Assembly (NCBI RefSeq): GCF_004010195.1
Contig: NC_057718.1
Coordinates: forward strand, 2,490,996-2,554,995
Direction: 5' to 3'
DNA length: 64,000 nucleotides
From: Chiloscyllium plagiosum
Taxonomy: Eukaryota
Part shown: piece by piece, positions 41,943 to 56,721 of the stretch
Layout: every line of letters begins with the position of its first letter
Numbering within the stretch: the first letter of the stretch is position 1
Program-made: the position numbers and the translations under genes
The notes under the pieces: model-generated
The model's input: only the letters and a program-made list of their open reading frames with translations
Told to the model about the DNA's origin: nothing
Databases searched by the model: none

Positions 41943-43288
41943 TTAATTCCCATTTTATGAAAAATAATCCACACAAGGGACCACCAGACACCAGATTGTT
42001 GCAGAGATCCAGGGGATTTCATGAATGTTCTCTAGGAAGTGTCCTGAGTTCCTTGCCTGAGCTGACCGTACAGTGTCTGAGCAGCTCCAAAAGTGTAATC
42101 AAACTGCCACAGCATTGTTTGTGAGTCAGGCCCAGCAGCATCAGCTCTGAGCATTGCAATAAATGCAAGCCTTGCCATTGATGCCCACATCCCAGCGTCA
42201 ATGAAAGAAAACAGCAGCACTCTCTGAACGCCATCAACTCAGACTCCCAGAAATCTCAATCCCAATCAAAGGTTATCCAGCCTCCTCCCCATCCCAGTTA
42301 CATCACAGTCCTCTAGATAATGATGTCTTTTTGAAATATATAATGATAATCCCTTCGCTGAGGGCTCAGAACTGAGATACATTGGGCCACATGTGGTGTC
42401 CCTCACTCTCAGGAGGCAGGGGTGCGTTGTCCCATTCCTGGAAATCTCCTCCCTAAGTGCTCTGCTGAGTTCCTGTCGGGAGTCAAGTCCCTGAGTATCA
42501 CTGGTCACTAGAGAAGCATTATCTCATGCCCTGTGCTTCAGCGGTTACACATGTGACTACTTTCTGCACCAACTATATTGTTAGTCTTCTGAATATTGAT
42601 TTACTTCCAGCTGGTGGTAGTGCTCCACAAGTTGGATCATGGAGGGAAATCTGGCTTGATAAATCATAAATTTTATTTTCTGCTTTATTTAATGAAAAGG
42701 TCAGTCACTGAAAATGTTAACAAGAGTTTGCCAATTTCCTGTGAGCAAAAGAACATCAATGTTTATTGCACACACATAAAAAAAATGATCTTACACCATA
42801 CAAGGAGTATTTGAAACAGTTTTATTACAAACATCAGAAAGAAAGATTCAATCCCCTTAACCCCTCAACAACATTCCAGTCTCTCAAAAACCAGTGAAGG
42901 ATTACCCTTGTCTTGACACTACAGCTCCTTGTTCAGTTGGGATGGCTGTATTTGGTTTAATATTGACAGATTTCTGCATTCATTGGATGCCATTTCTTCA
43001 CTTAATGTCTCTTTTGGAGCCTGAGCTCACTTCCTTAACACATGGTCATCAAACCAGTATATTAACACATGGTCATCAAACCAATATATTAACAGCCCTG
43101 GGCAGCATCTTTTCTTTCTGACATCTCTATAGCTTTCTGCTTCTGAAGTTTCTTGCAATGTTTTCCCCCTCTTCATAACACTGTTCCTTCATGACAATGT
43201 GAATATAGATATCTCTAAAATCAATTTCTGTGAGGCATCTTATTATCCTTTCAGATGAACAGCAGCATCCTTGGCTCTATCTTTGAGT

Positions 43289-43407
43289 ATGAGTGCAGAG
43301 CCCTGGTCCTTGAGTGGTGGATCCTATTCAATGCATCTATGGTTGTTCTTCACCCTGAGCTTGCTGTTGTTCATTCTGCTGCTGATCTCCTGTGGAGGCT
43401 GCATGAG
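43289..43407 (+). CDS. PAG1/LIME1-like palmitoylated transmembrane adaptor, coding exon 1 (TM + CxxC)
   Basis: Acceptor TATCCTTTCAG ends at 43254 and there is an in-frame upstream TGA at 43256. The exon reads MSAEPWSLSGGSYSMHLWLFFTLSLLLFILLLISCGGCM(R), followed by a consensus donor AG|GTAAGT, phase 2. Confidence 0.82.
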
Positions 43408-44099
43408 GTAAGTCAGCTGGACACTCGCACCATGCCCCTGGTGGCATCACTGAAGGAACAGGGCTTTCTGCTATGTGTTTGCCATTTCACCAGTTTATCA
43501 GTGAACCTCTGACATCCTGCACTGTCCTCCTCACAGTCGATAATCTGCAAACAGAAATTGTTCCCTGTACTCCAAGTCTGTGATCATTCAGGAAAAAGGT
43601 AGCTACCAAAACCTAACCCTTGGGAAGCTCCACTACACACCTTCTTCCAATTTGAAAAACATCTCCAACATTTCCTAGCTTCCTGTCCCTCAGACATTAC
43701 ATTAATCACTGTCATTTATACATTAGCAAGTAGGGAGGATGGAGAGGAATACATCAGCAAGGAAAGAAAAGAGCAGTGTAAACGTCGTCAAGGAGTTATA
43801 ATGGGAGATTTTAATTACCTGCCTATTGATTGAAATACTGGTTGAGTAAGGGGCAATGCTGGCTTGTGTTCAGGGGAATTCCCGACATAGTATGTATCCA
43901 CTCCAACAAGAAAGGTTGCTCTGTTAGACCTGGTTGTTGGGAATGCGGGTAGCCAAACAGAACAGGTATCAGTGAGACAATATTTAGGATTCAGCGATCA
44001 TTGTATTGTAAGGTTCAGGACAGTGCTGGAGAATGACATGCAACAATTCTGAGTAAGAATAATCAACTCTCAGAGAACCCACTAATGGGACTTCAGGTG

Positions 44100-44408
44100 G
44101 TGTGGTGGCTCAGTGGTTAGCACTGCTGCCTCATAGCACCAGGGTCCCAGGTTCGATTCCTGCCTCGGGTGACTGTCTGTGTGGAATTTGCACGTTCTCC
44201 CTGTGTCTGCATGGGTTTCCTCCCAGTGCTCCGGTTTCCTCCCACAGTCCAAAGATGTGCAGGTCAGGTGAACTGGCCATGCTAAATTGCCTATAATATT
44301 AGGTGCATTGGTTAGAGTGAAATGGGTCTGGGTGGGTTACTCTTCGGACGGTACGTGTGGACTGGTTGGGCTGAAGGGCCTGTTTCCACACTGTAGGGAA
44401 TCTAATCT
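44100..44408 (+). mobile_element. HE1-type V-SINE, full length
   Basis: GTGGCTCAGTGGTTAGCACTGCTGCCTCA..GGTTCGATTCC (A/B boxes), V-domain and GGGAATCTAATCT tail. Confidence 0.9.
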
Positions 44409-44534
44409 ATTTTAATTAGAAATTTAAAAAAAACAGAAATTGCTGAAGAAACTCAGCAGGTCTGGCAGCATTTGTAGAGAGAGAGAGAGTAGAATTAACA
44501 TTTTGAGTCTGTTGACTGAAAATAACTGGAAAAT

Positions 44535-54853: not shown

Positions 54854-55353
54854 GTCACCCCGGGTCACGTAAAGTAAGCTGGCAAAATGATGTGGAAATG
54901 CCTGGCATGCAAGATAATAAAGAATCTCCGTGTCAACACAGCAGAGCATTGCCTGAGATTCCCGCTGCTTTGGACGATAAGGGGAATCCTGATGGGAAAG
55001 GTGACCCTGTCTACCAGACAGCGAGGGAGCTAACCGCTGCAGAGTGCCAGGAGATTTCAGAAGACCCCATCGAACCGTCGTATGCGGCTAGTGACCAGTT
55101 CAGCCTCGAAGCACAGAGGTCAGAGTTCATCATCGAGGATGATGTTGCCAAGGAGGAGGGGAACTTCCAGCAGGAGAAAGTGGCCCCTGTGTATGCACGA
55201 GTCAGCAAAAAGACAAAGACCGCACCATTGCTGTGTCTTCCCAGTCTTTCGGCAGCCCATGGGAATGTGGAACGTGATGAGGAACCGCCACCACTACCCG
55301 AGAAACGATTCGACCTTGATGATGATTTTGTGATCGGTGAAGAATCCGAGCAG
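54854..55353 (+). CDS. PAG1/LIME1-like adaptor, coding exon 4 (SH3-ligand and tyrosine motifs)
   Basis: Acceptor CTCTCACAG and donor CAG|GTTAGA. CQHSRALPEIP (cf. PAG1 CHQSRELPRIP), PVYQTAREL, PSYAAS, PVYARVSKK and EEPPPLPEK. Non-repeat sequence with coding-like CpG content. Confidence 0.85.
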
Positions 55354-55889
55354 GTTAGATGTGGACTGGAACAGATTGTTTTCCCAGTCTGTCTGTGGCT
55401 CTCCTTCACTAACTCAGCCCCTCCCCCTTCCCCGTGATTTTCCTCTCTCTGATTCCCATTCACTCCTTCATGTCTTTATTGACAGAAATCACTTAACCCC
55501 AGATTATAGTCCAACTGGTTTATTTGAAATCACAAGCTTTCAGACTTCACCTGATGCTCCGAAAGCCTGTGATTTCAAATAAACCTGTTGGACTATAACC
55601 TGGGGTCATGTGATTTCTGCCTTTGTCCAACCCAGTCCAACACCAATACTCCCACATCATGCCTTTATTCGAAATCCTTACTTCACTCTCACACTTGCTC
55701 TTCCTGCCAACAGTCACATTCCATCCCATGTAGTTGCAATCAAGAATGCGCTGTCCCTGTTCTGGGAGTGTTTGATGGGGACAGTGTAGAGAAAGCTTTA
55801 CTTTGTGTCTAACCTGGTGTTGTCCCTGTCACTTGAGTGTTTGATGGGGACAGCATAGAGGGAGCTTTGCACTGTATCTAATCCCACAC

Positions 55890-56120
55890 AATTCGTCAAA
55901 TCCATCGAATTCAGCACCGCCTTCCTAACCTGCAATCTTCTTCCTGACCTCTCCACCCCCACCCCAGCCCTCCCCCAAGTCCCTCCTCCCTACCTTTTAT
56001 CTTAGCCTGCTGGACAAACTTTCCTCATTCCTGAAGAAGGGATTATGCCCGAAACGTCGATTCTCCTGTTCCCTGGATGCTGCCTGACCTGCTGCGCTTT
56101 TCCAGCAACACATTTTCAGC
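55890..56120 (+). mobile_element. Penelope-like 3' fragment with hammerhead core (56031-56058), inserted in a satellite
   Basis: CTGAAGA-A-GGGattatgCCC-GAAAC-GTC. 13-bp TSD TCTAATCCCACAC at 55877-55889 and 56121-56133. Confidence 0.8.
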
Positions 56121-56604
56121 TCTAATCCCACACTACCCCTGTGCAGGGAGTCATTAATGGGAACAGTATTGAGGGATATTTACTTTCATTTTAAAGGAGT
56201 AGAGAGAGCTTTGCATTCAATTTAAAAGGGTAGAGGGAGCTTTACTTTCAGCGTGAAAGAGGAGAGGACTCTGGTTAAGAGATGAATATTTCACATCTGC
56301 ACAGCGAGGGCTGCTAGAACCTTAACAGCTCTAGAACTCGAGGCATTGGCCACAACCTTGAATAGTTTGAAACTGTCTTTGACAAAAGATCAGTTCTTAA
56401 TTTGAAGTCTTGGATGGGTAGGTTTTTTGCTAAGTACATGGGTTGGTGAGTGTGATGAAAAGGTGGGTGTTTGGAATCGATCACAGATCAGCCATGATTC
56501 TATTGAATACAGAACAGCATTAAGAAGCTGCATGATTCTGGAATCTAACTGAAGACTCAGTGATGTTTTAACACTGACCCAGATTGTCACTCTTCATTTT
56601 TTAG

Positions 56605-56721
56605 ATACTGGTGGAGGAAACGCCTCAAGAAGATCCCAGGGCAGCTCTGCTTCCTGCTGAGTCGTGTGTCACTGATGGAGATGGTATTGTGGCCACAAGG
56701 AATGGTCTAACTATGGGCTAG
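56605..56721 (+). CDS. PAG1/LIME1-like adaptor, probable last coding exon
   Basis: Acceptor TCTTCATTTTTTAG. Phase 0, reads ILVEETPQEDPRAALLPAESCVTDGDGIVATRNGLTMG* with TAG at 56719-56721. An internal GT donor at ~56683 cannot be excluded. Confidence 0.62.
   Translation: MLVEETPQEDPRAALLPAESCVTDGDGIVATRNGLTMG

What the first reader, a model, noticed from the sequence alone, without database searches (positions are those of the whole stretch)
43255..56721. Hidden five-exon gene for a PAG1/LIME1-like palmitoylated transmembrane adaptor next to PAQR8
Seen: five exons (43289-43407, 52543-52612, 52938-52995, 54854-55353, 56605-56721) have canonical AG/GT ends and compatible phases (2, 0, 1, 0). 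They join into an 864-nt ORF of 287 aa: ~16-aa ectodomain with no signal peptide, a hydrophobic TM, juxtamembrane CGGC, then an acidic low-complexity tail with RALPEIP, YQTAREL, YAAS, YARVSK and PPPLP. Known: this is the architecture of raft-targeted transmembrane adaptors (PAG1/Cbp, LIME1, LAT, LAT2, SCIMP), and PAG1 has CxxC, RELPRIP, YETVKEI and PPPVP in the same order. Human PAG1 is at 8q21 and LIME1 at 20q13, whereas MCM3-PAQR8-EFHC1 is at 6p12, where I know of no such adaptor. Inference: this may be an additional PAG1/LIME1 ohnolog from the vertebrate genome duplications, retained in cartilaginous fish and lost in mammals, acting as an uncharacterised regulator of Src-family/Csk signalling.
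Basis: partly seen in the sequence, partly recalled or inferred. Interest (0 to 1): 0.85.

Follow-up and report, generated by a model that had tools for sequence, protein, structure and literature searches.

The report
Unnamed third PAG1/LIME1-family membrane adaptor
This shark gene is a real, spliced but never characterised sister of the human signalling adaptors PAG1 and LIME1, one of four copies that sharks likely kept from the early vertebrate genome doublings, and it is predicted to dock the Src-kinase brake Csk at the cell membrane.

Summary
The five exons and the 287-aa protein are exactly as described. The gene is not hidden: RefSeq holds the identical model as 'uncharacterized LOC122552548', and two assembled runs of a related species join exon 4 to exon 5. 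Its likely orthologues occur in sharks, rays, sturgeon, gar, teleosts (si:ch73-204p21.2), lungfish and reptiles; no amphibian, bird or mammal hit appeared. The genome has PAG1 on another chromosome, a long PAG-family gene at a LIME1-type locus, and a fourth, short, unnamed paralogue. All four share intron phases 2-0-1 at matching places and lie on the four stathmin-bearing chromosomes; the two short ones follow PAQR8 and a PAQR7-like gene. So this is most likely one of a complete two-round genome-duplication quartet. It lacks PAG1's own Csk exon, but its one invariant tyrosine motif (YARV) fits the published Csk-SH2 motif and LIME Y167. Csk binding and palmitoylation are untested. Verdict: new member of a known family, moderately interesting.

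The parts
43255..43407 (+). Exon 1: acceptor at 43255, start codon 43289; short outside peptide, transmembrane helix, C35-G-G-C38; ends in a phase-2 intron two residues after the second Cys
   Evidence: same intron position in all four paralogues
52543..52612 (+). Exon 2 (70 nt, phase 2 to 0), juxtamembrane tail
   Evidence: top-scoring candidate; in RefSeq P0001
52938..52995 (+). Exon 3 (58 nt, phase 0 to 1)
   Evidence: top candidate; in RefSeq P0001
54854..55353 (+). Exon 4 (500 nt, phase 1 to 0): RALPEIP, Y136 (YQTA), Y159 (YAAS, sharks and rays only), Y196 (YARVSKK), PPPLPEK
   Evidence: covered end to end by contigs in X2 and X3
56605..56721 (+). Exon 5 (coding part, to the stop); poorly conserved tail; transcribed 3' part runs to at least 56877 in the related species
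22039..23235 (+). Neighbour: PAQR8-type single-exon ORF (HlyIII family); a 52% identical paralogue precedes the fourth copy on C27
150..221 (-). Neighbour: probable first coding exon of the MCM3-type gene, in a CpG-rich stretch; its ATPase exons lie about 15 kb before the window
   Evidence: MCM3 label recalled from motifs

Best explanation
The window holds a real, conserved five-exon gene for a single-pass membrane protein with a CxxC motif and a likely disordered acidic tail, which is likely one of four PAG1/LIME1-family copies made by the two early vertebrate genome doublings and is predicted to work as a palmitoylated scaffold that recruits Csk to restrain Src-family kinases. Shown: gene structure, annotation, wide conservation, three paralogues in the same genome, shared introns, shared neighbours. 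Inferred mechanism: (1) insertion without a signal peptide, tail inside; (2) palmitoylation at C35/C38 and raft targeting; (3) a Src-family kinase binds through its SH3 domain to RALPEIP or PPPLPEK and phosphorylates Y196 (and Y136); (4) phospho-YARV binds the Csk SH2 domain; (5) Csk phosphorylates the kinase's inhibitory tail, a negative feedback loop. It would be a stripped-down, essentially one-tyrosine version: it stops where PAG1 and the C20 gene continue into exons with their further tyrosines.
For: Paralogues: PAG1 on C4 (Pfam PAG 129 and 89 bits), a long PAG-family gene on C20 (43 and 25 bits), a short one on C27 (its exon 4 scores 28.9 bits, above the cut-off of 27). Introns: in 4 of 4 the membrane exon ends AG|GT two residues after CxxC, and the large exon opens in phase 1; in 3 of 4 it closes in phase 0 (C27 ends in it); small exons of 70/58, 52/94, 55/88 and 64/76 nt fit phases 2-0-1 (picked by splice score, C27 also by match to P0038). 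Synteny: stathmin genes lie on exactly C4, C9, C20, C27; order STMN-PAQR-adaptor on C9 and C27; adaptor then DUF4772 gene on C9 (22 kb) and C4 (61 kb); TPD52-like and ZNF704-family genes within 400 kb on C20. STMN1-4 mark the chicken 23/2/20/3 quartet (PMC2865548, passages and Table S2 row). Tree: PAG1 + C20 against this family + C27 type at 94/98; profile match to the C27-type protein 97.7%, E 1.9e-12. Motifs: Y196, A197, C35 and PPxP invariant in 21 of 21 rows of A3; the Csk library motif Y[TAS][KRQN][MIVR] (PMC2194115 Table I) is present in 15/15 sharks and rays, 5/6 basal ray-fins, 1/1 lungfish, 19/19 reptiles, 69/75 teleost rows; 1.7% by chance in the shuffled tail. LIME Y167, a mapped Csk site, reads VAEYARVQKRK against VAPVYARVSKK here. 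Atlas nearest sets: PAG, si:ch73-204p21.2, LIME1 (0.95-0.91).
Against: Direct similarity to PAG1 is weak: exon 4 scores 9.6 bits on Pfam PAG, full-length P0001 has no PAG hit, 6 of 11 shark/ray proteins hit only below the cut-off, hhalign to shark PAG1 exon 4 gives 6.9%. Of 21 wider hits 12 touch PAG and only 4 pass the cut-off. The tree does not resolve this family as one group against the C27 type (43% of bootstrap trees) and the 94/98 branch is below the tool's star level. By position Y196 aligns with a PAG1 tyrosine that is not the Csk site; PAG1 binds Csk through Y317 (PMC2213442), whose exon is missing here. Reptile orthologues keep CxxC in only 1 of 19, so raft targeting is not family-wide. 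The motif counts include near-identical and isoform rows and groups found by searching from this protein. No binding, palmitoylation or tissue data exist.
Confidence: 0.65

Rival explanations
1. Same origin, different job: the protein is a positive or neutral scaffold that binds Src-family SH3/SH2 domains (or another SH2 protein) through RALPEIP, PPPLPEK and phospho-Y196/Y136, and does not recruit Csk to any useful extent.
For: Y196 is positionally the PAG1 tyrosine upstream of the proline motif, not Y317; PPxP is as invariant as Y196; LIME, with the same Y167 motif, raised Lck phosphorylation and calcium responses (PMC2194115 abstract). SH3 ligand classes are recalled, not tested.
Against: Y196 fits the Csk library motif at all three positions and keeps a basic +5 residue in every row that has the motif; the tyrosine-rich distal exons that would give Lck/Fyn SH2 sites are absent.
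Confidence: 0.22
2. This gene is the true LIME1 orthologue, moved or left at a paralogous locus, and the C20 gene is a second PAG1-like copy.
For: Best motif match is LIME Y167; Pfam LIME1 finds nothing in this genome; the C20 gene scores as PAG and is not directly upstream of its ZNF704-family neighbour (about 350 kb, opposite strand); the Atlas hit for the C20 exon is mixed PAG/LIME1 and flagged weak.
Against: C20 carries TPD52-like, ZNF704-family, SRMS/PTK6-like, stathmin and opioid-precursor genes, the recalled human 20q13 set around LIME1; teleost orthologues of this gene are named si:ch73-204p21.2, not lime1, and one is fused in a model to a PAQR8-like protein; this tail is acidic (pI 4.3) whereas LIME is basic (pI 9.7).
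Confidence: 0.07
3. An unrelated transmembrane adaptor that resembles PAG1 only through short convergent motifs, or a copy from a small local duplication rather than genome doubling.
For: Low-complexity tails and weak scores to PAG1; other adaptors (SCIMP, LAX, GAPT) also appear in the Atlas list at 0.84-0.89.
Against: Three introns shared in place and phase among four genes, collinear motif order, and four different chromosomes each with its own stathmin.
Confidence: 0.06

Closest known systems
PAG1/Cbp (Pfam PF15347)
   Same: Short outside peptide, one helix, CxxC, acidic tail, RxLPxxP, tyrosine and proline motifs in the same order; same first three intron phases; followed by a DUF4772 zinc-finger gene.
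   Different: 287 against 416 aa in this shark; 3 tail tyrosines against 13; lacks the terminal exons with the Y317-type Csk site and distal YESI-type motifs; below the Pfam cut-off; different chromosome.
LIME1 (Pfam PF15332) and the long C20 gene of this genome
   Same: Type III raft-adaptor layout; Y196 context nearly equals LIME Y167, a mapped Csk site; C20 gene shares the introns.
   Different: No PF15332 hit; acidic, not basic; no counterpart of LIME Y200/Y235/Y254; different locus.
Teleost si:ch73-204p21.2 and 'uncharacterized' LOC models in sharks, sturgeon, gar, lungfish and reptiles
   Same: Likely orthologues: group profiles score best on this protein among the four paralogues, and a Channa model fuses it to a PAQR8-like neighbour.
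   Different: No function assigned; the one paper found lists the zebrafish gene only in expression tables (PMC11578587). Reptile forms mostly lack the second Cys; teleost forms mostly lack RxLP.
Unnamed fourth paralogue (G000 C27:17.734-17.745 Mb; Heterodontus XP_067867077)
   Same: Short, ends after PPxP, YAK[IV] at the Y196 place, follows a PAQR gene and stathmin.
   Different: About 28% identical; no exon 5; CxxC intact on C27 but second Cys lost in Heterodontus.

Membership tests
Raft-targeted transmembrane adaptors (criteria of PMC2194115) | N-terminal peptide of 5-50 aa followed by one transmembrane helix | tested here: met
   hydropathy; helix 13-36
Raft-targeted transmembrane adaptors (criteria of PMC2194115) | CxxC within 0-4 aa of the helix | tested here: met
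   C35-G-G-C38; 15/15 sharks and rays, but 1/19 reptiles
Raft-targeted transmembrane adaptors (criteria of PMC2194115) | At least one Yxx[I/L/V] motif in the tail | tested here: met
   Y196 YARV only; Y136 and Y159 do not fit
Raft-targeted transmembrane adaptors (criteria of PMC2194115) | The hydrophobic segment is an anchor, not a cleaved signal peptide | tested here: inconclusive
   no signal-peptide predictor run; inferred from CxxC plus basic residues after the helix and homology to PAG1
Raft-targeted transmembrane adaptors (criteria of PMC2194115) | Palmitoylation, raft residence and tyrosine phosphorylation in cells | not testable with these tools
   needs bench work
PAG1/LIME1 gene family (common descent) | Shared intron positions and phases | tested here: met
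   small exons of C4 and C20 chosen by splice score without transcript support
PAG1/LIME1 gene family (common descent) | Position in four paralogous chromosome blocks | tested here: met
   quartet of stathmins in PMC2865548 Table S2
Pfam PAG PF15347 | Score at or above the gathering cut-off of 27 bits | tested here: not met
   P0001 no hit, exon 4 9.6 bits; 3 reptile orthologues and the C27 type do pass
PAG1 orthologue | Being the genome's PAG1, with the Y317-type Csk site and distal tyrosines | tested here: not met
   PAG1 is on C4; terminal exons absent here
LIME1 orthologue | PF15332 match and place beside SLC2A4RG/TPD52L2-type genes | tested here: not met
   no PF15332 hit; that place is held by the C20 gene, whose identity as LIME1 is inferred
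Csk-binding scaffolds | Tyrosine motif Y[T/A/S][K/R/Q/N][M/I/V/R] | tested here: met
Csk-binding scaffolds | Actual phospho-dependent binding of the Csk SH2 domain | not testable with these tools
   needs a phosphopeptide or cell assay

The most novel reading that the evidence does not exclude
Sharks keep the complete four-copy PAG1/LIME1 set from the two vertebrate genome doublings; the two unnamed short copies form a second, minimal branch of one-tyrosine Csk adaptors that survives in fish, lungfish and reptiles (where it shed one raft-targeting cysteine) and was lost on the way to mammals, so most vertebrates have a membrane brake on Src kinases that mouse and human work could never reveal.
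Probability: 0.45. Interest if true: 0.7.

Novelty: new member of a known kind. Interest (0 to 1): 0.55.

Why it matters
It gives a family and a testable function to an unnamed gene present across most jawed-vertebrate groups, with a zebrafish orthologue ready for knock-out. It dates PAG1 and LIME1 as genome-duplication sisters and doubles the family to four. A natural adaptor reduced to membrane anchor, one tyrosine and one proline motif is a clean test of what is needed to bring Csk to Src kinases, and a hidden back-up could mask pag1 or lime1 phenotypes in fish. It is a new paralogue, not a new kind of mechanism. No paper linking these genes was found in searches, which cover open-licence papers only.

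Tried and rejected
Pfam LIME1 on the genome: no match, uninformative because the model misses non-mammalian forms or the gene. Solved structures with profile A3: nothing below E 1. AlphaFold: one helix, no domain, so no fold search was run. Genome-wide SH2 search: 39 unnamed hits, not used. Opioid-precursor search gave weak hits on C4 and C20 and none on C9. Local profile scan upstream of the C20 zinc-finger gene (32.29-32.49 Mb) found no second adaptor. P0031 is a repeat artefact and was dropped. No run on record as RNA holds the stretch; single-cell run X17 gave no reads, no test. The genome could not be searched with a family profile of my own, so a fifth copy is not excluded. ITIM reading of Y196 rejected: the -2 residue is P, A or S, not a conserved I/L/V/S (consensus recalled). 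Fused models GCC21497 (with the zinc-finger gene) and Channa P0133 (with PAQR) judged prediction artefacts, useful only as synteny. No protein-complex job: binding needs phosphotyrosine. Earlier findings of this scan: none returned. No amphibian, bird or mammal hit; the first used a shark-only profile and the second scored only 7995 candidates and missed even known members, so this is not evidence of loss.
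Full report
Observation. The protein is identical to RefSeq XP_043551176.1, 'uncharacterized protein LOC122552548' of Chiloscyllium plagiosum. 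Exon 4 has one match in the genome. There is one hydrophobic segment (17-35), then C35-G-G-C38, then an acidic tail with three tyrosines; AlphaFold on a 12-sequence alignment gives one helix and no folded domain. Of four runs laid on 54500-57300, two (coded organism B, about 97% identical) hold a single contig that covers exon 4 and continues without the intron into exon 5; one of these has 596 further letters before exon 4; X1 holds exon-4 pieces and an unspliced piece; X17 gave no reads. The tool only guesses that X1-X3 are RNA. Of 11 exon-4 differences shared by X2 and X3, 7 are silent (2 single-run rows left out), weak support for constraint.

Range. Searches found the protein in sharks and rays and, with profiles, in sturgeon, paddlefish, gar, bowfin, arapaima, lungfish, lizards, snake, turtles and alligators (24 hits at E up to 0.001, one a repeat artefact; names) and many teleosts, where sources call it si:ch73-204p21.2 (97 hits). 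Profiles of the reptile, teleost and basal groups score best on this protein among the shark paralogues (59, 36, 69 bits against at most 34, 11, 30), though the groups were found from it. A Channa model fuses the teleost gene behind a PAQR protein closer to the window's PAQR (46%) than to its C27 paralogue (40%). No amphibian, bird or mammal protein appeared; these searches are too weak to prove loss.

Paralogues. Pfam PAG finds PAG1 on C4, a second long gene on C20 and a broken exon copy on C7. A divergent Heterodontus hit (P0038) maps to a fourth gene on C27. In all four the membrane exon ends at the same place after CxxC in phase 2 and the large exon begins in phase 1; three close it in phase 0; small exons with phases 2-0-1 exist in each (those of C4 and C20 were picked by splice score). 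The models align collinearly through RxLP, YE/QT, YAxV/I and PPxP; the C4 and C20 genes go on into further tyrosine-rich exons, this gene and C27 do not. A tree of 26 rows (long genes cut to the shared part) splits C4 + C20 from the rest at 94/98 but leaves this family against C27 unresolved; hhalign gives 97.7% to the C27 type and only 6.9% to PAG1 exon 4.

Synteny. Stathmin genes lie on C4, C9, C20 and C27. C9: stathmin 2.364 Mb, MCM-type gene, PAQR 2.513, this gene 2.534-2.548, DUF4772/C2H2 gene 2.570-2.584. C27: stathmins 17.59-17.62, PAQR paralogue 17.688, short adaptor 17.734-17.745. C4: PAG1 121.47-121.51, DUF4772 gene 121.57-121.75, TPD52-like 122.13, stathmin 122.31. C20: long adaptor 31.90-31.95, TPD52-like 32.09-32.11, ZNF704-family 32.30, SH3/kinase genes 32.41-32.48; stathmin 5.6 Mb away. 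PMC2865548 (passages; supplement rows) places STMN2, 3, 1, 4 on chicken 2, 20, 23, 3, a quartet it ascribes to the two genome doublings; PAG1, LIME1, ZNF395, ZNF704 and PAQR8 do not occur in its four text-held supplements. Labels such as STMN4, ZNF395, PAQR7, TPD52L2, SRMS/PTK6 and the human map positions are recalled, not from a call. EFHC1-type sequence is not adjacent.

Mechanism. PMC2194115 (abstract and passages) defines raft adaptors by three sequence features, all met, and lists Csk sites, with LIME Y167 VAEYARVQKRK and the library motif Y[TAS][KRQN][MIVR]. Y196 here (VYARVSKK) is invariant in 21 of 21 aligned rows (one row is the C27 type) and the motif is in 15/15, 5/6, 1/1, 19/19 and 69/75 rows of the five groups (rows include isoforms and partial proteins; chance 1.7%). 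Csk reaches the membrane through SH2 binding to such scaffolds (PMC3492796, passages). Against: PAG binds Csk through Y317 (PMC2213442, passages), and the matching exon is absent here; Y196 lines up with an earlier PAG1 tyrosine. I therefore put the ohnolog identity near 0.87 and Csk recruitment near 0.65-0.7 given that; every biochemical step is inferred. Reptile orthologues mostly keep one cysteine only (CxxC 1 of 19), so raft targeting may have been relaxed there.

Known or new. The gene is annotated but unnamed. Searches found no paper that relates it to PAG1/LIME1 or describes a quartet; the zebrafish name occurs in one paper, in two expression tables (PMC11578587, passages). PMC11601247 was seen as a listing only. 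Subscription journals and orthology databases were not searched, and the latter may already group these genes. Verdict: a real new member of a known family, best valued for the four-copy set and the minimal architecture; interest 0.55.

Noticed in passing
G000 C27:17733800-17744920 (+), loci L071, L072: A fourth, unnamed PAG-family adaptor of about 231 aa after a PAQR paralogue and two tandem stathmin genes; passes the Pfam PAG cut-off; found only in sharks in my searches.
   Followed up: yes
G000 C20:31898900-31950800 (+), loci L005, L007: Long (about 480 aa) PAG-family gene, likely shark LIME1, far more PAG1-like than mammalian LIME1; lies about 350 kb from and opposite to its ZNF704-family neighbour, suggesting a local inversion.
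   Followed up: partly
G000 C7:85546992-85547228 (-), locus L004: Isolated copy of part of the PAG1 large exon with an in-frame stop.
   Followed up: no
G000 C9:2570268-2584350 (+), loci L012-L013: DUF4772/C2H2/CR3 zinc-finger gene directly downstream; probably ZNF395 (recalled motif likeness). The GenBank model GCC21497 fuses it to the adaptor and skips the zinc-finger exon.
   Followed up: partly
G000 C98537:8200-8436 (+), locus L010: A third DUF4772 first exon on an unplaced 25-kb contig; may be the missing 5' end of the C20 zinc-finger gene.
   Followed up: no
window 43255-43407 and 52543-52570: An out-of-frame ATG sits at the very start of exon 1 and opens a 60-codon frame overlapping the real start; could dampen translation.
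   Followed up: no
proteins P0012, P0013: Chiloscyllium punctatum has two near-identical RefSeq models of this gene on one contig (281 and 260 aa): tandem copy, isoforms or assembly artefact.
   Followed up: no
reptile proteins P0030-P0079: Reptile orthologues keep only the first cysteine, followed by a basic run, and many gain an extra YE[ST][IL] motif after PPxP.
   Followed up: partly
window 1-500: CpG-rich stretch with the probable first exon of the MCM3-type gene on the minus strand, head to head with PAQR8.
   Followed up: partly
window throughout; G000 C9:2619900-2645400: Many decayed LINE-type and other retroelement fragments in the introns and downstream (labels recalled, not tested).
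   Followed up: no
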